From the sequence record LT960609: 44,798 bases of DNA. One strand, written 5' to 3'. Below the pieces are notes generated by a model. It was not told where the DNA came from. It worked only from the letters and a program-made list of their open reading frames with translations, and searched no databases. The position numbers were made by a program, and so were the translations under genes. Every line of letters begins with the position of its first letter. Positions within the stretch are counted from its first letter, which is position 1. Shown here piece by piece: positions 1 to 44,798 of this stretch. The DNA is from Escherichia phage SECphi18.

Positions 1-55
1 GGTGAATAATAGATTGGTTGCAGGATGGGTGTCAACAACTAATTTAAAAAAAAAA
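1..55. repeat. Terminal duplication, copy 1 (identical to 44744-44798)
   Basis: First 55 nt (ggtgaataatagattggttgcagg...aaaaaaaaaa) recur exactly at the window end. Confidence 0.8.
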
Positions 56-29799: not shown

Positions 29800-31578
29800 A
29801 TGGCAGCGGGTACACTATCCGTAACGAATAACAGCAAGGCGGTTGTCGGGGTAGGCACGACGTTTACCGCGTTTAAAGCTGGCGACTTCTTAACGCTGGT
29901 GGTAGGGCAAGTCCCATACACCGTGGCAATCGCGTCCATTGAAAGCGCAACCGCGCTCACGCTGGTGTTACCGTTCGACGGCCCAACGGCAACCGGCCTT
30001 GCGTGGGATGGCGTTAAGCGCGATACCATGTCGCTGGCAACGATGGGCGTTACCGTACAGGCCCAAAAAGCATTGCGCTTGATGATTGCAGATGAAAACA
30101 ACTGGCGTGCAATCTTCGGCGATGCTGAAGAAATCACAGTCACGCTCCCGAACGGGCAAGTTATGCAGGGTATGTCGTGGGGCTACCTGTCGTCTTTGCT
30201 GAAGGAAGTAGACCCCGTTGAGATGCGCAACCTGCAACAACAAGCCGCCGCATCGGAAGCAGCCGCGCAAGGATTCCGTAACGAGGCGGAAGGCTTCAAG
30301 AACGACGCCAACACCATCAAGACGCAGACCAACCAGATTAAGGCGGATACGCAGGCGATCAAGGACCAAACGAATCAGATCAAGACTGACACTGGCGTTA
30401 TTCGTGATGAAGCCAATACTGCGAAGGAGGACGCGCAATCTGCCCGCACTGCCGCGCAAGGATTTCGCAATGAGGCTGAACAATTCGCTAATAGTGTTAA
30501 CCCGGAAAACCTACTTGCGAAGGCCAACAACTTAAGTGATGTTGCGGATGTGGCTGTGGCGCGCGAAAACATTGGTGTAGACCGCCTAACGCAAAACATA
30601 ACCAGCGGCGAAACACAAATCAGGACTGCGGCGAGTAATAAATGGATCTTCGTTAAGGAAAATGGCGACTGGGGCGGGTGGGATAATGCCAACAATAAAG
30701 CCATGCCGCTGCCGATTGCATTCGGTGGTACGGGGCGCGGCGATAACGTCGCCGCGTTCCGCCAGTTTAAGTCTAACGGCGAATCCCCGGACGGATTAAT
30801 CCTCAAGCAGGCTGGGGCCGGTTTCGGTGGCGCAGGCTGGGCCAATTCAGCGGATAAAGTACGCTGGCGTATGGGCATCGACGAAGCCTCTGGCCATTTT
30901 AAAATGTACTCATACGACGCAGCGGGAGCGTATCGAGACACCGTCCTCGAGATCACCGGAGCAGGACTCGGGGGCATGGTGTTGTCCCGTGATATGACCG
31001 TGCGCCCGACGACGGCAGTTCCCGCGCGATCGTTCGTTCTAAACAACGGAAAAGCTACCGTCCCGGCTGGTAACTTCCGCACGATGTGGGATACGGTTAA
31101 TATCAATAGTGACCAGATCTATAAATATTTTGAGAAGGGAGACGGCACTGGCTTTACAGTCAATTGGCCCTCATCCGGTGGTGTTATTGCCCTCCAGGGT
31201 ACATCAGGAAGGGACTTTAAGAAAGATATTACCGACGCGGATGTTACAGAAGCGGTTGCACGCATTGAACAAATGCGCATGGTGCGCTACGTGTATAAGG
31301 ACGATGTGCAGGAGCGCGTCCGCTTCGGCATCATTGCCGAGGAAGCAGAAGAGATTGCGCCTCAATACATCAAACACCGTGAGGAGACGTACGATGTGGA
31401 GGTGGACCCCGAGACTAACGCCATCGTCGGGGGTAAGACGCGCGACCGTCCGTCGGTAGACGTTAACCCTATCGTGATGGACTTGATGGGGTGCGCACAA
31501 TATGCGATCGCTGAGTGTAAACGCCTGGCGGCGGAAGTGGAGGATTTGAAAGCCGAGATCGCGGCGTTGAAGAAATAA
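29800..31578 (+). CDS. Tail fibre with C-terminal intramolecular chaperone domain
   Basis: 592 aa from ATG with RBS gagga; central repeats (QTNQIKADTQAIKDQTNQIKTDTG); C-terminus resembles autoproteolytic S74-type chaperone domains. Confidence 0.65.
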   Translation: MAAGTLSVTNNSKAVVGVGTTFTAFKAGDFLTLVVGQVPYTVAIASIESATALTLVLPFDGPTATGLAWDGVKRDTMSLATMGVTVQAQKALRLMIADENNWRAIFGDAEEITVTLPNGQVMQGMSWGYLSSLLKEVDPVEMRNLQQQAAASEAAAQGFRNEAEGFKNDANTIKTQTNQIKADTQAIKDQTNQIKTDTGVIRDEANTAKEDAQSARTAAQGFRNEAEQFANSVNPENLLAKANNLSDVADVAVARENIGVDRLTQNITSGETQIRTAASNKWIFVKENGDWGGWDNANNKAMPLPIAFGGTGRGDNVAAFRQFKSNGESPDGLILKQAGAGFGGAGWANSADKVRWRMGIDEASGHFKMYSYDAAGAYRDTVLEITGAGLGGMVLSRDMTVRPTTAVPARSFVLNNGKATVPAGNFRTMWDTVNINSDQIYKYFEKGDGTGFTVNWPSSGGVIALQGTSGRDFKKDITDADVTEAVARIEQMRMVRYVYKDDVQERVRFGIIAEEAEEIAPQYIKHREETYDVEVDPETNAIVGGKTRDRPSVDVNPIVMDLMGCAQYAIAECKRLAAEVEDLKAEIAALKK

Positions 31579-31588
31579 ATAAATAGAA

Positions 31589-31611
31589 GGGGCCATGCGG
31601 CCCCTTTTTTT
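31589..31611. terminator. Bidirectional intrinsic terminator
   Basis: ggggcc-atgc-ggcccc followed by T7; lies between convergent genes. Confidence 0.6.
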
Positions 31612-32185
31612 AGTTTGAGTTTTCCCAGTCCATTTTTCGCCGCACCAGGGGGCTTTCGTAGTATTCCTTTCCGTCCACTTCCACTAAGGGCCAGTCATTA
31701 ACAATGACGTATGGTTCCGCGATATCCTCGATCACGCCATGCGCGCTTTGCGGCCCTAACGACACACCAACCAGGATAACACCGGCAACGCGACGGGCAA
31801 GATACTCGCGAGCGCAACGCGCCTCTACCAGTCCGCGACGGATGCCGCTGGTGGCCTTAACCTCGTAGGTCCATACGGCATCAATCACATGCTCGCGGAA
31901 GTCTGGACCGGACTTAACCTTGCGTTTACCGACCATGATGATATCGCCGCGGTCAATGGTATTGGCGCTAAACAGGCCGGTACGCATCAGTAAGCCTTGC
32001 GGGATACAACTACGCCCGCCCGCCTGGCCCTCAAGGTACATGCCAGCAAACATCTCGCCCAGCACACCGACAAGACGGCTTTGCTTGCACGCGTCAGACT
32101 TTAAGCGCCACTGGTCAAACTCGATGCTTGCTATCATAGCCGCCAGGTGGAATTGTTTACCGGATATTTCATATTCGCCGTACAT
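31610..32185 (-). CDS. Hypothetical protein, possible PD-(D/E)xK nuclease fold
   Basis: 191 aa; GPDF...VWTYEVK resembles a PD...ExK motif; weak. Confidence 0.35.
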   Translation of the reverse strand: MYGEYEISGKQFHLAAMIASIEFDQWRLKSDACKQSRLVGVLGEMFAGMYLEGQAGGRSCIPQGLLMRTGLFSANTIDRGDIIMVGKRKVKSGPDFREHVIDAVWTYEVKATSGIRRGLVEARCAREYLARRVAGVILVGVSLGPQSAHGVIEDIAEPYVIVNDWPLVEVDGKEYYESPLVRRKMDWENSN

Positions 32186-32227: not shown

Positions 32228-32749
32228 TTATTTCAGTGCGCCAGTCACCAGTGTTTTTTCCATGTTGCGGAAGTCTTCCGGCGTCATGAGGATTTTGGAC
32301 CCGTCTTCGCCAGTTAGAACGACCATAGGCTGGACGTCCTGGTCTACGACGCCGAAATCGGCGGCTTTGACAGTCTTGCCCGCCGATGCCGAAGGATGCC
32401 ACGCCCCTGCGGTGGCGATGGGCCAACCTTTAAGGCTATCGTATTGCGCTGCCGTTGTATCGATCTGGATCTCGTCATGTACGGTCATGTACGACTCGCC
32501 CAGCAGTGCGGCATATGCTACCAGGTCAACGATGTTATCGTCCTGGTGCTTACGGTGCTGGCGTACCAGCTTCAGGCAGATCAGGAAGGTCCAGGCTTCT
32601 TGCTCGGTAAGGTCGCGACCGGTAAGCGCGTTAAACACGGCAGCGATCTGCTTAGCGCTGCGCTCCTCTTTCGCGTTGTCATAGCCGTTTTCTTTCCCGC
32701 GCTGATCCATAGTGGTGGCGGCGTTTTTGCAGTATTCGTATGCTTTCAC
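32228..32749 (-). CDS. Hypothetical protein
   Basis: 173 aa; GTG start with RBS aaaggg. Confidence 0.45.
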   Translation of the reverse strand: MKAYEYCKNAATTMDQRGKENGYDNAKEERSAKQIAAVFNALTGRDLTEQEAWTFLICLKLVRQHRKHQDDNIVDLVAYAALLGESYMTVHDEIQIDTTAAQYDSLKGWPIATAGAWHPSASAGKTVKAADFGVVDQDVQPMVVLTGEDGSKILMTPEDFRNMEKTLVTGALK

Positions 32750-32793: not shown

Positions 32794-32823
32794 ACTATAG
32801 TGCAACCAACCTATTGGTTGCAA
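32794..32823 (-). promoter_or_regulatory. Sigma70-like promoter containing a palindromic operator
   Basis: TGCAACCAA-cctA-TTGGTTGCA inverted repeat (9-bp arms); minus strand -35 TTGCAA, 18 nt, -10 TATAGT. Confidence 0.5.
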
Positions 32824-33281
32824 GTAAATTTTGCAACGTTTATTGCGTAAATTTTCGGGACCAGATCGCTGCACGCCCGACGAATTGCCGCGATGTTCTT
32901 CTCGCAATCTTCAATGATGACCAGTTCGGACACGTCCGCATAGCAGACCATTTTGAACACGGCGCACGCTTTAAACTCTGGCGGCGGGGTGTCGTCCAGC
33001 ATGTGGCGCATGAACAACCGGCCGTTCGGGAATACTTCCAGTTGCTCGGCGGTCGTGTCCCAACATTCGCGCTGCCGGTTTGTCAGATACGCGATCTCGA
33101 AGCCTTGCTCTTTGTACATGCGCAACAGCGGCAGCATATCCATGTTAAGGTCTTCGCGTACGTGCGCTTTGTGCCACTTCGCCCAAAATGTTGATTTGGT
33201 TTTTATACCCGGAACCAGGTCGGCGCGTGCATCACTCGAACCATTAATAACGCCATCAAGATCACAAATCAGTAGTTTCAT
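32811..33281 (-). CDS. HAD-superfamily hydrolase/phosphatase-like protein
   Basis: 156 aa; N-terminal LLICDLDGVI matches HAD motif I (DxDG). Confidence 0.5.
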   Translation of the reverse strand: MKLLICDLDGVINGSSDARADLVPGIKTKSTFWAKWHKAHVREDLNMDMLPLLRMYKEQGFEIAYLTNRQRECWDTTAEQLEVFPNGRLFMRHMLDDTPPPEFKACAVFKMVCYADVSELVIIEDCEKNIAAIRRACSDLVPKIYAINVAKFTCNQ

Positions 33282-33502
33282 TTTAAGCTCTCAATAAGGG
33301 TGTGTCGGGCGCTGCGCGCGGTGAAGGAGTTACACACGAAATGGCAACGCTTGGTTATGACAAGCCAGCCGGTAAGATCCAGGCCCAGGATATATTCAGG
33401 CCGTGACACGCGCTTCACGTGATCGCGGCGTGGGTCGATGTTATAGTCTCTTTGCATTTGGTATACTACCGCGGGGTCGCGGTCAACGATTAAGATATTC
33501 AT
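33278..33502 (-). CDS. Hypothetical protein
   Basis: 74 aa from internal ATG with RBS gagag; overlaps neighbours by 4 nt. Confidence 0.4.
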   Translation of the reverse strand: MNILIVDRDPAVVYQMQRDYNIDPRRDHVKRVSRPEYILGLDLTGWLVITKRCHFVCNSFTARSARHTLIESLK

Positions 33503-33968
33503 GTAACTCACTCTCGCTCATTATTTCAATTTGTGCGCTGCCGATGGGCGGCGCTTCGTCAAAGATTATCAATTGCTGGCACTTGTTATTGCTAGGCCCG
33601 ACTTCGCCGGTGACGGCGTGTATAAATCTAATCCGCCAGTCCAGAAGAATTATCAGGTTTGCAGTCTTCCTGGCCAGCTTCGCCCCCTTCGTCGACGTGT
33701 CCTGATTCAGTAGCATGACCGTCCGGCGTCCGTGCGCTGCGCACTCTACCCACGGCAGCGGATCGGAATACGGCGGATTGCACCACTTCCACCCTTTCAA
33801 CTCGGACCAGTCCACATCAAGCGCGCTGTGTTCCGCCGTGAAGTAACGCGGTAGCAGATGATTGGCGTCGCTTGCCGCCATATCGTAACGGAATCGGTAT
33901 TTCCGACGAAGCGGTTTAAATAAAGCTGGCGGCGTGCGCCAGCTATCTTTTTGCTCATTCTCCGTCAT
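33483..33968 (-). CDS. DNA N6-adenine methyltransferase (phage Dam-like)
   Basis: 161 aa; catalytic NPPY motif (WCNPPYSD). Confidence 0.6.
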   Translation of the reverse strand: MTENEQKDSWRTPPALFKPLRRKYRFRYDMAASDANHLLPRYFTAEHSALDVDWSELKGWKWCNPPYSDPLPWVECAAHGRRTVMLLNQDTSTKGAKLARKTANLIILLDWRIRFIHAVTGEVGPSNNKCQQLIIFDEAPPIGSAQIEIMSESELHEYLNR

Positions 33969-34413
33969 AGTCTGGATCTATCGCATACAGGGCGGTTTTC
34001 TTGCCACTGGATAGCACGCGTTGGACTCGGGATAGCTCCGCCCTACTGAGCGGTCGGCTATCGGAATAGTAGCTGCCGTTTGCACGCCACGCTATACGCA
34101 CCAGTCCTTTCCGCGGGATCGAAGACTGGCTGCCCTTCGGACGGACGTACTCCTCGGCCAGTTTGCAATGCTCGCGCAGACCTTCGGCAGTGATGCGGTT
34201 TAGCGCGACGGTGGTTGTGTACCCGGTGCGCTGCATAATACCCATCAACTCATACAGCAGTTCGAAGCGCTCCTCTAACTCCTTGCGCATCTTTTCCTCG
34301 CCTTCATAGCTCGCCAGGTAGGTATCCGCCAGCGCGTTCGCCCGTTCGACCTGTTCGCGGGCTTCGAGGCATTGCGCGGCCCAGTAATTTTTCTCTTCTT
34401 GTAAAATTTTCAT
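33955..34413 (-). CDS. Hypothetical protein
   Basis: 152 aa; charged helical N-terminus. Confidence 0.45.
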   Translation of the reverse strand: MKILQEEKNYWAAQCLEAREQVERANALADTYLASYEGEEKMRKELEERFELLYELMGIMQRTGYTTTVALNRITAEGLREHCKLAEEYVRPKGSQSSIPRKGLVRIAWRANGSYYSDSRPLSRAELSRVQRVLSSGKKTALYAIDPDYDGE

Positions 34414-34433
34414 CGTGTTGTCTCCAGGTATTA

Positions 34434-34460
34434 AAAAAGGCGTCCAAACCGGACACCCTT
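34434..34460 (-). terminator. Terminator-like hairpin on minus strand
   Basis: Minus strand: ggtgtcc-ggttt-ggacgcc followed by T6. Confidence 0.4.
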
Positions 34461-34467
34461 AAGATAA

Positions 34468-34494
34468 TGCAACCAATATAATTATGCAACCAAT
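34468..34494. promoter_or_regulatory. Tandem operator-motif pair
   Basis: Two TGCAACCAAT copies 17 nt apart in the intergenic region. Confidence 0.5.
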
Positions 34495-34818
34495 TTACGA
34501 ATAAAAATTTGGGTCGCGCGCTACGTCTACCAGATACAGATTGCTGATTCGGTTGCCGTAGTGGCCTGGTGTGCGCTTGCGGCACACAACGGCGTAGCCT
34601 GGAGGAATTGTATTGCCAGTCTCAATAATCCACGCCACGCGCGCGCCAGATAGCGTCTTGCCGTTGCACTCGATGCGCGTGCCACCATCGGCAGTGTTAA
34701 GGTTGCCGATCTTGCAGCCTGTGGACTTCAGGCGAATGACGCCGGTCTTGCTGTCGTAGGAAAAAAGCTGATTGGTCATTGCCACTGAAAAGTCGATGGC
34801 TTCGAATGTAGTATTCAT
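34495..34818 (-). CDS. Hypothetical protein, HNH-like
   Basis: 107 aa; weak resemblance to homing-endonuclease DNA-binding modules. Confidence 0.3.
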   Translation of the reverse strand: MNTTFEAIDFSVAMTNQLFSYDSKTGVIRLKSTGCKIGNLNTADGGTRIECNGKTLSGARVAWIIETGNTIPPGYAVVCRKRTPGHYGNRISNLYLVDVARDPNFYS

Positions 34819-35510
34819 TTTAAATTTTCCTCATTGACCGCTATCGCGAAGCCGCGCGGGGTGAGCGACCTGATTAATTTGGTGCGGGCAGATTTGCCTC
34901 CGAGGCGACTATACTGCTTCGAGTACCCTTTTTCAACGAAAACAGGTTTCTTCTCTGGCATACGGAAGCCGTTGCCGGTCCATAAGCAGGTCAGCTTCGG
35001 ATATGAATCGCGGGCGTTGATGTACTCTGGGAAGAGCGGGTGTACGTCATCCACCGGTAGATAGCCGCCATACTCCCACGGGTCGAACGAGTGGTCCGGC
35101 TTGCGCCATTGGGTCGATAGCACGCTGCGCGGATTCTCAATCATATATGGCACTTCGAAGAAGTCCCCCAGGTAAGCGGCGATCTTCGCGGTGCGCACCG
35201 CCTTAAGCTGGAAGGCAGGGTCGCGGGCGCGTTTGCGCGGGAAAGCTGGCGCACCGCTAACCGCCAGATCCGTACACGGCGGGAATGCGTAAATGATATC
35301 CGGCGTGCCGAAATCACCATTCATCGCGCGGTCCACGAAGTCCAGATCGATAAACTCATTACGATATCGGATACCGCGCCCATAGATCCGGTAATCAAGG
35401 TAAGACCCGTGATCGGCTTCGGAGTAGTTGAAGCAATAACACTTATGCCCCATCTCGGCAGCACGCTCAATCATCAAGCCGCTGCCGTCAAACAATGACC
35501 AGATTATCAT
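34815..35510 (-). CDS. DNA C5-cytosine methyltransferase-like protein
   Basis: 231 aa; motif I-like LFDGSG, motif IV-like FPPC, motif VI-like ENP; short for a full methyltransferase. Confidence 0.45.
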   Translation of the reverse strand: MIIWSLFDGSGLMIERAAEMGHKCYCFNYSEADHGSYLDYRIYGRGIRYRNEFIDLDFVDRAMNGDFGTPDIIYAFPPCTDLAVSGAPAFPRKRARDPAFQLKAVRTAKIAAYLGDFFEVPYMIENPRSVLSTQWRKPDHSFDPWEYGGYLPVDDVHPLFPEYINARDSYPKLTCLWTGNGFRMPEKKPVFVEKGYSKQYSRLGGKSARTKLIRSLTPRGFAIAVNEENLK

Positions 35511-36931
35511 TTGCGAGCCTTTTTAGCTTTCATGTATTCCATCAAGTCGTCCTGTATATCTCGCTTACTGTCGCGACGCTCGGCGACCAGTTCGTCCAGT
35601 GTTCCGCGCGCCTGGATAATGTAGACGAATACCGGTCGAGGGTGTCCGGCCTGCATCTGGCGAACCGGCCCGATACGTTCAACGATCTGCGAAAAGTGCT
35701 CAAAGTTCCAGGTATCGGAGAAGATTGCCAGGTGATGACCGCCGTCCTGCAAGTTAAGGCCGTGGCCCGCCGATGCCGGGTGTGCAAACATGATGGGGAT
35801 CTCGCCTCTGTTCCACGCTTCCATATCCTTATTGCCCTGCTTACCCTTACCCAACGCGACGCCGTGCGGAAATTTCTTCTTAAGACGTGCCAGGTCATGC
35901 TTATACTGATACGCAACGAGCAACGGCGCGCCGTTCAACTCCTCCACGATACTTTCCAGCGCGTCCAGTTTGGCGTCGTGAATCTTCACCCATTCGTCGG
36001 TGCGCTCGCCGTCTTCGTCGACTTTATACACGGCCCCCGAAGCAAGCTGAAGGCACTTAATAGTCTTCGACGCAGCGTTCGCCGCCTCCACCGTTCCGCT
36101 TTCCAGTTCGGCAAATAGCTCGCTTTCAAACTGGTCGTAAATCTTGCGGGCTTTCTTCGGCAGGTCCACAACAACCGGCGTATAGATTGGCTTGTCGCAC
36201 CCGAAGTATTCTGCCGCGTCAACGGTGAGGGATACATCTGACAGACGTTGTTGTATCTCTTTCTCGGAGTTCTTTAGCGGAGCGTGCTGCATAGTGAAGC
36301 TGCCAGGCTTAACAGGCTTGCTAATAAACCAGCGGTCGGTAAATGCCTTATAGCTACTGCCGAGGCGTTCGCCACCGTCGACAAACCACGTCTGACCCCA
36401 TAAGTCTTTTAGCCCGTTTGGCGCTGGTGTGCCGGTAAGGTTAATCCAGCGCTTGACGTGTTTATGTGCAATCGCTGCCAGTGCGCGGGCGCGCTTGCTC
36501 CCCTGCTTGCTACGATAGCCTTTCAGCTTAGTCGATTCATCGGCAACAACGACCGTAAAGGGCCACGCATCGCCGTAATAGTCTACCAGCCACTCAACCA
36601 CATCGTAGTTAACACAAACCACGTTAGCGTCGCTCTCAAGCGCGGCAATACGGTCCTTCTCCGGTCCGGTGCCGTCTACGACCAGTAGGGATGAGAACCG
36701 CCATTTCTCCTGTTCCGGGGGCCATGTACCCGACGCAACACGCAGCGGGGCCAGCACCAGTACGCGGTCCTCATGATGTGACAGGACGCCAGTCTGGAAC
36801 ATTTTATTCAGCGCCCACATTGTCGCGCCGGTTTTCCCGGATCCCATTGTCGCCCAGATATTACATCGCTTATGCTTGAGGATGAACGCGGTAATCAACT
36901 TCTGATATTCGCGGCGTCGGAATCGTGCCAT
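35507..36931 (-). CDS. SNF2/DEAD-like superfamily 2 helicase
   Basis: 474 aa from internal ATG; Walker A MGSGKTG, DEST box, helicase C-terminal motifs. Confidence 0.65.
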   Translation of the reverse strand: MARFRRREYQKLITAFILKHKRCNIWATMGSGKTGATMWALNKMFQTGVLSHHEDRVLVLAPLRVASGTWPPEQEKWRFSSLLVVDGTGPEKDRIAALESDANVVCVNYDVVEWLVDYYGDAWPFTVVVADESTKLKGYRSKQGSKRARALAAIAHKHVKRWINLTGTPAPNGLKDLWGQTWFVDGGERLGSSYKAFTDRWFISKPVKPGSFTMQHAPLKNSEKEIQQRLSDVSLTVDAAEYFGCDKPIYTPVVVDLPKKARKIYDQFESELFAELESGTVEAANAASKTIKCLQLASGAVYKVDEDGERTDEWVKIHDAKLDALESIVEELNGAPLLVAYQYKHDLARLKKKFPHGVALGKGKQGNKDMEAWNRGEIPIMFAHPASAGHGLNLQDGGHHLAIFSDTWNFEHFSQIVERIGPVRQMQAGHPRPVFVYIIQARGTLDELVAERRDSKRDIQDDLMEYMKAKKARK

Positions 36932-36935
36932 CTCT

Positions 36936-37154
36936 TTATTCCGCCTTTTTCCAGACTTCAGTTTCACTATCCCAGTTCCTCTTTGTGGCGTCGTAGTTGG
37001 TGGCGTGTCCGACGTGGACACCGGTAGCCCGGAAGCTCTTAAATTTTTGCCAGCACACCGTCAACGGCAGCGGATCATTCATGCCTGCGATAAACCACAC
37101 GCGATCGCCCGGTTTACATTCGCCCAGCTTGGTGAGTCGGTAATGTTCTTTCAT
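36936..37154 (-). CDS. Hypothetical protein
   Basis: 72 aa from internal ATG with RBS gggaga. Confidence 0.4.
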   Translation of the reverse strand: MKEHYRLTKLGECKPGDRVWFIAGMNDPLPLTVCWQKFKSFRATGVHVGHATNYDATKRNWDSETEVWKKAE

Positions 37155-44743: not shown

Positions 44744-44798
44744 GGTGAATAATAGATTGGTTGCAGGATGGGTGTCAACAACTAATTTAAAAAAAAAA
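44744..44798. repeat. Terminal duplication, copy 2 (identical to 1-55)
   Basis: Last 55 nt equal the first 55 nt. Confidence 0.8.

What the first reader, a model, noticed from the sequence alone, without database searches (positions are those of the whole stretch)
33483..35510. Adenine and cytosine methyltransferase genes in the early module
A Dam-like N6-adenine methyltransferase (NPPY) and a short C5-cytosine methyltransferase-like protein lie in one leftward operon with a HAD phosphatase and a possible PD-(D/E)xK nuclease, suggesting an anti-restriction or DNA-modification role.
Basis: partly seen in the sequence, partly recalled or inferred. Interest (0 to 1): 0.45.

Follow-up and report, generated by a model that had tools for sequence, protein, structure and literature searches.

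The report
Two small phage DNA methyltransferase genes
This E. coli phage (genus Dhillonvirus) carries two very small DNA-methylating enzymes, one for adenine and one for cytosine; the genes are real and conserved, but they are already annotated in about 150 sequenced relatives, so the finding is correct and ordinary.

Summary
The window is a Dhillonvirus genome, about 92% identical across this region to Escherichia phage Oekolampad/Bas18.

- **Adenine enzyme:** 33483-33968(-) encodes a 161-aa T1/HP1-type Dam (Pfam PF05869, E 1e-33). Its NPPY is the only (D/N/S)PP(Y/F/W) motif in any ORF of the window.
- **Cytosine enzyme:** 34815-35510(-) encodes a 231-aa minimal C5-cytosine methyltransferase. 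Pfam, NCBIfam and PDB sequence searches do not detect it. It does have the FDGSG, PPC and ENP motifs, and a confident model whose 44 best PDB matches are all C5 DNA methyltransferases.
- **Tested homologue:** it is 53% identical over its full length to the KarlJaspers Dcm. The orthologue in the closely related strain K42 was shown experimentally to make 5mC and to trigger retron Ec86.
- **Neighbours:** the HAD-like phosphatase and the PD-(D/E)xK-fold protein are also supported.
- **Selection:** both methyltransferase genes are under strong purifying selection.

They are most likely orphan enzymes that copy the host's Dam/Dcm marks (GATC, CCWGG; both inferred) onto phage DNA. Protection from restriction can only be narrow: published plating data show Oekolampad is strongly restricted by EcoRI, EcoRV and type III systems. 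The feature is already known and of low interest.

The parts
35507..36931 (-). SNF2-family DNA helicase. The ORF stays open up to a GTG at 37021, but the likely start is the ATG at 36931. Its stop overlaps the C5 gene start (ATGA).
   Evidence: Pfam SNF2-rel_dom 1.8e-10 and phrog_62 5.6e-157. Oekolampad and SO-1 annotate 474 aa. Junction sequence.
34815..35510 (-). Minimal 'Dcm-like' C5-cytosine DNA methyltransferase, 231 aa. Motif I FDGSG 7-11, catalytic PPC 77-79 (Cys79), ENP 125-127 (Glu125), WR 135-136, LTPRGF 216-221.
   Evidence: phrog_757 1.3e-81. No Pfam, NCBIfam or PDB sequence hit. AF2 model pLDDT 90.6. The top 44 Foldseek PDB hits are all C5 DNA methyltransferases. 53% identity over the full length to KarlJaspers Dcm. 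Invariant residues. dN/dS 0.02-0.03.
34495..34818 (-). HNH-like 107-aa protein (annotated 'putative homing endonuclease' in relatives). Overlaps the C5 gene stop by 4 nt.
   Evidence: phrog_99 HNH endonuclease 1.5e-16, no Pfam hit. dN/dS 0.04.
34433..34493 (-). Intergenic control region between the two methyltransferase genes: two tandem copies of TTGGTTGCA (34485-34493 and 34468-34476), then a hairpin plus T-run (34433-34457), then the RBS and ATG of the 152-aa gene.
   Evidence: The motif occurs 12 times against 0.54 expected. Flanks. Hairpin -14.5 kcal/mol. Sequence.
33955..34413 (-). 152-aa protein of unknown function with a coiled-coil-like N-terminus. It carries a 'DNA ligase' label in PHROGs and in SO-1 that nothing here supports.
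   Evidence: phrog_10530 8.8e-90, but no Pfam, NCBIfam or PDB support. dN/dS 0.2-0.27.
33483..33968 (-). Small T1/HP1-type Dam, an N6-adenine DNA methyltransferase of 161 aa. NPPY at 64-67. Its start overlaps the upstream gene by 14 nt.
   Evidence: PF05869 1.2e-33, 116.6 bits against cut-off 28.1. phrog_111 8.3e-53. PADLOC orphan methyltransferase 2.7e-9. TIGR01712 scores 81 bits, below its cut-off of 97. 30% identity, E 1e-12, to KarlJaspers Dam, which is 67.6% identical to T1 Dam.
33278..33511 (-). Small conserved protein of 74-77 aa, function unknown. Overlaps the Dam stop and the HAD gene start.
   Evidence: phrog_10685 5.6e-44. Annotated in Oekolampad.
32811..33281 (-). HAD-superfamily phosphatase-like protein, 156 aa, with DLDGV (DxDxV) at 7-11. 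Relatives call it a nucleotidase or a polynucleotide-kinase/phosphatase.
   Evidence: Pfam Acid_phosphat_B 3.6e-5, 23.8 bits, below the cut-off of 27. phrog_415 4.8e-36. Weak HAD hits in PDB. dN/dS 0.03-0.05.
32801..32822 (.). Perfect 9-bp inverted repeat TGCAACCAA-N4-TTGGTTGCA between the HAD and DUF6378 genes. Likely an operator.
32228..32749 (-). DUF6378 protein, 173 aa.
   Evidence: PF19905 1.7e-9. phrog_9871 1e-110.
31610..32185 (-). 191-aa protein with a PD-(D/E)xK (restriction-endonuclease-like) fold. Invariant E44, D102, E108, K110. The family is confined to Dhillonvirus-like phages.
31585..31608 (.). Bidirectional intrinsic-terminator-like hairpin. It closes the leftward gene block and the rightward tail-fibre gene.
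   Evidence: both strands. The tail-fibre ORF ends at 31578.

Best explanation
The two genes encode active, stand-alone ('orphan') SAM-dependent DNA methyltransferases. They sit in the DNA-metabolism arm of a lytic Dhillonvirus.

The 161-aa enzyme is a T1/HP1-type mini-Dam. It transfers a methyl group to adenine N6 through its NPPY motif, most probably at GATC (inferred from the family).

The 231-aa enzyme is a minimal C5-cytosine methyltransferase. Cys79 of PPC attacks C6 of a flipped-out cytosine and Glu125 of ENP protonates N3, as in other C5 enzymes. The likely target is CCWGG, inferred from the tested K42 homologue.

Made together with the replication proteins, the enzymes fully methylate the 177 GATC and 151 CCWGG sites of newly replicated phage DNA. 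This happens whatever the host's dam/dcm status and however fast the phage replicates.

The expected benefit is narrow. Progeny DNA carries the E. coli 'self' pattern and resists nucleases that cut unmethylated GATC or CCWGG, such as MboI/DpnII-type enzymes, EcoRII-type enzymes and MutH nicking. The cost is that the C5 activity can be sensed by retron Ec86/Eco1.

Shown here: gene identity, motifs, fold, conservation and homology to a tested enzyme. Inferred: the target sequences, the timing of expression and the selective benefit.
For: - Dam: PF05869 at 116.6 bits, cut-off 28.1. Its NPPY is the only such motif in any ORF. It is homologous to KarlJaspers Dam, which is 67.6% identical to T1 Dam and also related to 933W and HP1 Dam. 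T1 and TLS virion DNA is adenine-methylated at GATC (PMC11447400).
- C5 enzyme: FDGSG, PPC and ENP are invariant in 46 homologues. The AF2 model has pLDDT 90.6. The top 44 PDB fold matches are all C5 DNA methyltransferases. hhalign to E. coli Dcm lines up motif IV with motif VI.
- Tested homologue: the protein is 53% identical over its full length to KarlJaspers Dcm. The orthologue in strain K42 raised 5mC in msDNA by LC-MS. Its C82A/E128A/K175A/K176A mutant was inactive, and a CCTGG site was required (bioRxiv 10.1101/2023.08.16.553469). C82, E128 and K175 correspond to C79, E125 and K172 here.
- Selection and spread: dN/dS is 0.02-0.19. About 150 Dhillonvirus records carry each gene at 90% identity or more.
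- Substrate sites: GATC and CCWGG are abundant and not avoided, with O/E 0.81 and 0.89.
Against: - No methylation data exist for this phage or, as far as I could find, for any Dhillonvirus.
- Neither target sequence can be read from the sequence. The C5 enzyme shares no recognition domain with E. coli Dcm.
- The K42 experiments were done in dcm+ MG1655, where host Dcm did not trigger the retron. The phage enzyme may therefore differ from host Dcm in specificity, substrate form or dose.
- K-12 hosts are already Dam+ Dcm+, so the benefit is not obvious.
- The BASEL authors found no simple link between methyltransferase genes and restriction resistance in the related Drexlerviridae (PMC8594841).
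- Oekolampad is heavily restricted by every type II and type III system tested.
Confidence: 0.7

Rival explanations
1. The enzymes are active methyltransferases, but they serve the phage's own DNA transactions and not defence evasion. Possible roles are keeping GATC fully methylated so that host MutHLS does not nick rapidly replicating or recombining phage DNA, marking DNA for packaging or for replication and transcription timing (as Dam does for P1 pac cleavage), or avoiding Vsr-type repair.
For: - The genes lie among helicase, polymerase, nuclease and phosphatase genes, not among recognisable anti-defence genes.
- The normal host already supplies Dam and Dcm.
- The phage stays highly sensitive to the restriction systems tested.
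- BASEL saw no correlation between methyltransferase genes and restriction phenotype.
Against: - There is no clustering of GATC or CCWGG that would suggest a regulatory or packaging site; this was not examined in detail.
- The same two families are spread over more than 1500 phage records with very different replication and packaging strategies. That pattern fits a portable protective function better.
Confidence: 0.2
2. The methyltransferases and the conserved 191-aa PD-(D/E)xK protein form a phage-borne restriction-modification-like or host-takeover module. Phage DNA is marked, and unmarked host or competitor DNA is degraded.
For: - The 191-aa protein has a restriction-endonuclease-like fold with invariant E44, D102, E108 and K110.
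- It is on the same strand and in the same block, and is strongly conserved, with dN/dS 0.01-0.06.
- In Pantoea phage AH01 a homologue of the C5 enzyme sits next to a gene annotated as a restriction endonuclease (H54).
Against: - Three genes and a probable operator separate the nuclease from Dam.
- The nuclease family is confined to 7 clusters, while the methyltransferases occur in more than 1500 phage genomes without it.
- If the marks equal host Dam/Dcm marks, they cannot tell phage from host.
- The best fold matches include homing endonucleases and Holliday-junction resolvases as well as restriction enzymes.
Confidence: 0.05
3. The 231-aa protein is not a working DNA C5-methyltransferase. 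It would be a degenerate remnant, a regulator, or an enzyme acting on another substrate such as RNA.
For: - No Pfam PF00145, NCBIfam or PDB sequence hit.
- Only 2 of 71 diverse family members touch PF00145, and weakly.
- Fold-match TM-scores are only 0.45-0.57.
- The region between motif VIII and the C-terminus is very short for a recognition domain, and motif X is not recognisable.
Against: - The catalytic PPC and ENP motifs and the SAM-binding FxGxG motif are invariant or nearly so across the family.
- dN/dS is 0.02-0.03.
- The K42 member of the same family produced 5mC in DNA and lost activity when the catalytic residues were mutated; this protein is 53% identical to the KarlJaspers Bas06 orthologue.
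Confidence: 0.05

Closest known systems
Dcm-like methyltransferase of phage KarlJaspers (Bas06) and its strain K42, the trigger of retron Ec86/Eco1
   Same: Same family (phrog_757), same length class (236 against 231 aa), 53% identity over the full length. The catalytic Cys, the Glu and one of the two Lys residues mutated in that study are conserved. Both phages also encode a Dam-type enzyme.
   Different: The host phage belongs to a different family (Drexlerviridae, Hanrivervirus) and the gene neighbourhood differs. K176 is Leu173 here. No activity data exist for the Dhillonvirus protein. Whether Dhillonviruses are sensed by Ec86 was not established from text I could read.
E. coli Dcm (M.EcoKDcm, PF00145; CCWGG)
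   Same: The same chemistry is expected and, if the K42 inference holds, the same target site. Motifs IV (PC) to VI (EN) align.
   Different: 472 against 231 aa. No detectable similarity outside the catalytic motifs, no shared recognition domain and no vsr partner. Pfam PF00145 does not score it. 'Dcm-like' is a functional nickname and does not indicate orthology.
Catalytic domains of DNMT3A/DNMT3B, and M.HaeIII
   Same: Best structural matches: Foldseek E 1e-6 to 1e-4, probability 1.0. DNMT3 enzymes also have an unusually small recognition domain. The K42 authors independently superposed their model on DNMT3A 6F57.
   Different: Only 12-16% identity, TM 0.45-0.57. Those are eukaryotic CpG enzymes working in larger complexes. 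The phage protein is 40-50 residues shorter than even the isolated DNMT3 catalytic domain.
Phage T1 Dam, 933W/VT-2 Dam and HP1 Dam (Pfam PF05869)
   Same: Same Pfam family, small size, NPPY catalytic motif. 36% identity to the Stx-phage enzymes and 30% to the T1-type KarlJaspers enzyme. T1 and TLS DNA is GATC-methylated. GATC specificity of the VT-2 and HP1 enzymes is from my own recollection of the literature.
   Different: 161 aa against about 235 aa for T1-type enzymes. It lacks their N-terminal extension of about 50 aa. It falls below the TIGR01712 equivalog cut-off. Its specificity has not been measured.
E. coli Dam (alpha-class)
   Same: Probable functional analogue: GATC, m6A.
   Different: A different family. 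This rests on the Pfam hit to PF05869 alone and on general knowledge of methyltransferase classes.
Non-specific phage adenine methyltransferases (phiP27 / OS31 p25 type)
   Same: Phage-encoded orphan m6A enzymes.
   Different: No sequence relationship (BLASTP E 0.5). The restriction sensitivity of Oekolampad to EcoRI, EcoRV and EcoP1 argues against non-specific adenine methylation.

Membership tests
Phage Dam family (Pfam PF05869) | Profile HMM score above the curated gathering threshold | tested here: met
   116.6 bits against 28.1, E 1.2e-33, covering 4-152 of 169 profile positions.
Phage Dam family (Pfam PF05869) | Catalytic (D/N)PP(Y/F/W) motif of N6-adenine methyltransferases | tested here: met
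   NPPY at residues 64-67. It is the only such motif in any ORF of 60 aa or more in the window.
Phage Dam family (Pfam PF05869) | NCBIfam equivalog TIGR01712 (phage N-6-adenine-methyltransferase) cut-off | tested here: not met
   81.1 bits against a cut-off of 97.05. It is a family member but does not pass the equivalog cut-off.
Phage Dam family (Pfam PF05869) | Methylation of adenine in GATC | not testable with these tools
   Inferred only. The enzyme is homologous to the T1-type Dam, and T1/TLS DNA is GATC-methylated.
C5-cytosine DNA methyltransferases (Pfam PF00145) | Profile HMM match | tested here: not met
   No hit at E 0.01 or better. Only 2 of 71 family members hit, best E 0.0039. The family profile against PDB gives only M.HaeIII at E 0.65.
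C5-cytosine DNA methyltransferases (Pfam PF00145) | Motif I FxGxG (SAM binding), motif IV PC (catalytic Cys), motif VI ENV (Glu) | tested here: met
   FDGSG 7-11, PPC 77-79 and ENP 125-127. F7, G9, G11, P77, P78, C79, E125, N126 and P127 are invariant in 46 homologues. The motif IV to VI block aligns to E. coli Dcm.
C5-cytosine DNA methyltransferases (Pfam PF00145) | C5-methyltransferase fold | tested here: met
   AF2 pLDDT 90.6, pTM 0.89. Foldseek PDB ranks 1-44 are all C5 DNA methyltransferases, E 1e-6 to 2e-3, TM 0.41-0.57.
C5-cytosine DNA methyltransferases (Pfam PF00145) | Separate target-recognition domain between motifs VIII and IX, plus motif X | tested here: inconclusive
   Only about 70 residues (roughly 144-213) lie between the WR(135-136) segment and LTPRGF (216-221). 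No GNxVP-like motif X was recognised, and the protein ends at 231. No residue-level structural superposition was available.
C5-cytosine DNA methyltransferases (Pfam PF00145) | Produces 5-methylcytosine in DNA | not testable with these tools
   Shown by LC-MS for the K42 enzyme, whose Bas06 orthologue is 53% identical to this protein. Not shown for this protein.
Short phage Dcm-like family (phrog_757; K42/KarlJaspers Dcm) | Full-length homology and conserved residues equivalent to C82, E128 and K175 | tested here: met
   phrog_757 1.3e-81 over residues 1-229. BLASTP 53% identity, E 2e-85, 231 of 236 aa aligned. C79, E125 and K172 are conserved; K176 is L173.
PD-(D/E)xK nuclease superfamily (the 191-aa neighbour) | Restriction-endonuclease-like fold | tested here: met
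PD-(D/E)xK nuclease superfamily (the 191-aa neighbour) | Conserved acidic and lysine catalytic residues (D ... (D/E)xK) | tested here: inconclusive
   D102, E108 and K110 (IDAVWTYEVK) and E44 are invariant in 7 homologues. Their position in the active-site hairpin was not checked by superposition.
HAD-superfamily phosphatases (the 156-aa neighbour) | Profile match and motif I DxDx(T/V) | tested here: inconclusive
   DLDGV at residues 7-11. Pfam Acid_phosphat_B scores 23.8 bits, below its cut-off of 27, and the NCBIfam HAD hits are far below cut-off. phrog_415 4.8e-36.
Type II restriction-modification system | A cognate restriction endonuclease gene adjacent to the methyltransferase | tested here: not met
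   The neighbours of both methyltransferase genes are the helicase, an HNH-like protein, a 152-aa protein and a 77-aa protein. PADLOC scores Dam best as an 'orphan methyltransferase', and none of the eight block proteins scanned matched a restriction-enzyme model.

The most novel reading that the evidence does not exclude
The 231-aa cytosine methyltransferase does not simply copy host Dcm. It has almost no recognition domain, and it triggered retron Ec86 in dcm+ MG1655, where host Dcm does not. It may therefore write a different or broader mark: a shorter or relaxed site, the outer cytosine of CCWGG, or hairpin and single-stranded DNA. That would make it a phage-specific epigenetic signature. 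Such a mark could tell phage from host DNA and could work together with the conserved PD-(D/E)xK protein at the end of the block.
Probability: 0.12. Interest if true: 0.5.

Novelty: already known. Interest (0 to 1): 0.2.

Why it matters
The finding adds little. The same two genes are annotated as 'Dam-like N6-adenine methyltransferase' and 'Dcm-like C5 cytosine methyltransferase' in Oekolampad, SO-1 and many other Dhillonvirus genomes. The C5 family already has a published biochemical and immunological role as the trigger of retron Ec86.

Three points are still useful. First, the C5 enzyme belongs to a very widespread phage family (about 1500 phage genomes) that Pfam, NCBIfam and PDB sequence searches all miss, so annotation pipelines label it inconsistently. 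Second, no methylome has been reported for any Dhillonvirus, so both target sites remain inferences. Third, published plating data show that these enzymes are not general anti-restriction devices.

Tried and rejected
1. Sequence searches of the C5-like protein found nothing. This covers Pfam, NCBIfam, PADLOC and the PDB, as a single sequence and as a 71-member profile. Its identity therefore rests on motifs, fold and PHROG/BLAST homology.
2. I considered that Dam might belong to the non-specific phage adenine methyltransferases (phiP27/OS31 type). This is rejected: there is no sequence similarity, and Oekolampad is restricted by the m6A-sensitive EcoRI, EcoRV and EcoP1.
3. I looked for site avoidance that might reveal the targets. 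GATC (O/E 0.81) and CCWGG (O/E 0.89) are neither avoided nor enriched, so the test is uninformative.
4. Longer family members (300-450 aa) carrying extra N- or C-terminal regions were scanned for fused domains that might hint at a partner. No Pfam domain was found.
6. Literature searches for Dhillonvirus methylation data found only gene annotations. This covered the Durham collection, the BASEL follow-up, SECphi4 and the Danish wastewater phages.
7. PDB sequence searches for the HAD-like, DUF6378 and 152-aa proteins gave nothing significant. The 'DNA ligase' label of the 152-aa protein is unsupported.
Full report
**What the window is.** The 5.6-kb block around the finding matches 161 phage records by megablast, and 146 of them cover at least 80% of it. 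Nearly all are Escherichia phages of the genus Dhillonvirus. Examples are Oekolampad/Bas18 at 92.4% identity, welsh, and Sodalis phage SO-1. The window is 44,798 bp at about 55% G+C, and its first 55 bases repeat at its end. It is therefore a complete Dhillonvirus genome, assembled as a closed circle or with terminal redundancy. [quoted passage not shown]

**Observation check.** On the minus strand the ORFs run as follows:

| Coordinates | Product |
|---|---|
| 35507-36931 | SNF2 helicase (ORF open to 37021) |
| 34815-35510 | 231-aa C5-like protein |
| 34495-34818 | 107-aa HNH-like protein |
| 33955-34413 | 152-aa protein |
| 33483-33968 | 161-aa Dam |
| 33278-33511 | 77-aa protein |
| 32811-33281 | 156-aa HAD-like protein |
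| 32228-32749 | 173-aa DUF6378 protein |
| 31610-32185 | 191-aa protein |

A bidirectional terminator-like hairpin at 31585-31608 closes the block. The genes are not chance ORFs: dN/dS against Oekolampad and SO-1 is 0.02-0.03 for the C5 gene, 0.09-0.19 for Dam, 0.03-0.05 for the HAD gene and 0.01-0.06 for the 191-aa gene.

**The adenine methyltransferase.**
- It scores 116.6 bits on Pfam PF05869 (Dam), against a cut-off of 28.1, and 8.3e-53 on phrog_111. Its best PADLOC hit is 'orphan methyltransferase'. It falls below the TIGR01712 equivalog cut-off, 81 against 97 bits.
- NPPY sits at residues 64-67. It is the only (D/N/S)PP(Y/F/W) motif in any ORF of 60 aa or more in six frames.
- tblastn finds the family in 1588 phage records. 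These include the Stx-converting phages at 36% identity.
- It is 30% identical (E 1e-12) to the KarlJaspers Dam. That enzyme is 67.6% identical to T1 Dam and is related to the 933W and HP1 enzymes.
- T1 and TLS virion DNA is adenine-methylated at GATC (PMC11447400). GATC is therefore the most likely target here, but this is an inference.
- At 161 aa it lacks the N-terminal 50 or so residues of the T1-type enzymes.

**The cytosine methyltransferase: sequence and structure.**
- By sequence, the general libraries do not detect this protein. There is no Pfam, NCBIfam, PADLOC or PDB hit.
- A profile of 71 diverse relatives gives only M.HaeIII at E 0.65. Only 2 of those 71 touch PF00145.
- It is nevertheless a C5 methyltransferase by three independent lines.
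  - Motifs: FDGSG (7-11), PPC (77-79) and ENP (125-127) are present and invariant in 46 homologues. hhalign against E. coli K-12 Dcm aligns exactly the motif IV to motif VI block.
  - Fold: an AlphaFold2 model with pLDDT 90.6 has C5 DNA methyltransferases as its 44 best Foldseek matches in the PDB. DNMT3A/3B come first (E 1e-6), followed by M.HaeIII, MET1 and a prophage enzyme.
  - Homology to a tested enzyme: it is 53% identical over its full length (E 2e-85) to the 236-aa, 711-bp Dcm of KarlJaspers/Bas06.

**The cytosine methyltransferase: published experiments on the homologue.**
- In the closely related strain K42, all escape mutants from retron Ec86 disrupted that gene or its expression.
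- The enzyme raised 5mC in msDNA by LC-MS, and a C82A/E128A/K175A/K176A mutant was inactive.
- Changing the msDNA CCTGG site abolished defence.
- Of 35 Ec86-sensitive phages, 34 encoded such a Dcm (bioRxiv 10.1101/2023.08.16.553469).
- C82, E128 and K175 correspond to C79, E125 and K172 here; K176 is Leu173.
- The family is widespread. It has 2685 clusters at 90% identity, 810 representatives at 50% identity, almost all 210-260 aa long, and it appears in 1510 phage records. These span Dhillonvirus, T1-like, rV5-like, PVP-SE1-like and RB49-like phages.

**The neighbours.**
- The 156-aa protein has the HAD motif DLDGV. It has a sub-threshold Pfam acid-phosphatase hit and a strong PHROG match annotated as polynucleotide kinase/phosphatase. 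'HAD-like phosphatase' is reasonable, but its substrate is unknown.
- No restriction endonuclease partner lies next to either methyltransferase, so both are orphans.

**Operon structure.**
- Stop and start codons overlap for helicase/C5 (ATGA), C5/HNH-like (ATGA), 152-aa/Dam (14 nt), Dam/77-aa, and 77-aa/HAD (ATGA). This argues for co-expression within two sub-blocks.
- Between the sub-blocks, and so between the two methyltransferase genes, lie two tandem copies of TTGGTTGCA and a -14.5 kcal/mol hairpin followed by a T-run at 34433-34457.
- A perfect 9-bp inverted repeat of the same motif sits before the DUF6378 gene.
- The 9-mer occurs 12 times in the window against 0.54 expected, mostly just upstream of genes.
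- The block is therefore probably regulated internally and is not a single simple operon. 'Early' timing is untested.

**Most likely function.**
- Both enzymes most likely methylate replicating phage DNA at its 177 GATC and 151 CCWGG sites. These sites are not avoided, with O/E 0.81 and 0.89. Progeny DNA would then carry the E. coli self pattern whatever the host's dam/dcm status.
- This can protect only against nucleases that need unmethylated GATC or CCWGG.
- It is not general anti-restriction. In the BASEL raw data Oekolampad has 10 EcoRI and 30 EcoRV sites and 96-98% identical methyltransferases. It plates at about 2e-5 to 1e-4 on EcoRI and gives essentially no plaques on EcoRV, EcoP1 and EcoCFT_II.
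- The authors state that Dhillonvirus phages are restriction-sensitive compared with the 7-deazaguanine-modified Queuovirinae. For the related Drexlerviridae they add that methyltransferase genes show no simple link to restriction phenotype.
- EcoRI, EcoRV and EcoP1 are all blocked by adenine methylation within their sites. This result therefore also rules out a non-specific adenine methyltransferase. The known non-specific phage enzymes (phiP27 type) are in any case unrelated.
- A plausible alternative is that the marks serve the phage's own replication, repair avoidance or packaging. I could not separate this from narrow anti-restriction.
- One known cost is that the C5 activity can be sensed by retron Ec86.

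**Open point.** The CCWGG assignment rests on the K42 msDNA mutants alone. The phage enzyme shares no recognition domain with E. coli Dcm. Host Dcm in MG1655 did not itself trigger the retron. A different or broader specificity is therefore not excluded, and I give it about 12%.

**Verdict.** The feature is a standard, already annotated component of Dhillonvirus genomes, and the C5 family has published functional data. Novelty: already known. Interest: low (0.2).

Noticed in passing
window 14, 3291, 3322, 3839, 13663, 13676, 29774, 32801, 32814, 34468, 34485, 44757: The 9-mer TTGGTTGCA occurs 12 times against 0.54 expected. Most copies lie just upstream of genes, often as tandem pairs (TATATTGGTTGCA...) or as a perfect inverted repeat (TGCAACCAA-N4-TTGGTTGCA at 32801-32822). 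It is probably an operator or promoter element of a phage regulator. The binding protein is unknown.
   Followed up: partly
window 34433-34457 (minus strand): A hairpin (-14.5 kcal/mol) followed by a T-run lies between the HNH-like gene and the 152-aa gene, and so between the two methyltransferase genes. It is a possible internal terminator or attenuator that the consensus terminator scan did not list.
   Followed up: partly
window 1-55 and 44744-44798: The first 55 bases are identical to the last 55. The window is a whole phage genome whose ends overlap, as in a circular assembly or with terminal redundancy.
   Followed up: yes
window 33955-34413 (minus strand): The 152-aa protein is labelled 'DNA ligase' in PHROGs (phrog_10530) and in Sodalis phage SO-1. 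It has no ligase domain in Pfam, NCBIfam or PDB sequence searches, only coiled-coil-like weak hits. It also evolves faster than its neighbours (dN/dS 0.2-0.27). The label looks like a propagated mis-annotation.
   Followed up: partly
window 35507-37021 (minus strand): The mechanical helicase ORF starts at a GTG at 37021 (504 aa). Relatives annotate 474 aa, which corresponds to the ATG at 36931.
   Followed up: yes
whole window: CTGCAG (PstI site) occurs once against about 8 expected, and CTAG 17 times against 52 expected. GGCC and GGWCC are mildly depleted (O/E about 0.7). This may be restriction-site avoidance unrelated to the two methyltransferases. CTAG depletion is common in enterobacterial sequences.
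   Followed up: no
window 32228-32749 (minus strand): The DUF6378 protein is labelled 'phosphofructokinase' in two related PHROG families (phrog_474 and phrog_1167). Nothing else supports that label.
   Followed up: no
phage records H84 (Shigella phage 1b); protein clusters P0017 and P0104: Some Dhillonvirus relatives carry truncated or split versions of the C5 methyltransferase gene, in one case next to a 'putative homing endonuclease'. The gene is therefore occasionally disrupted in nature.
   Followed up: no
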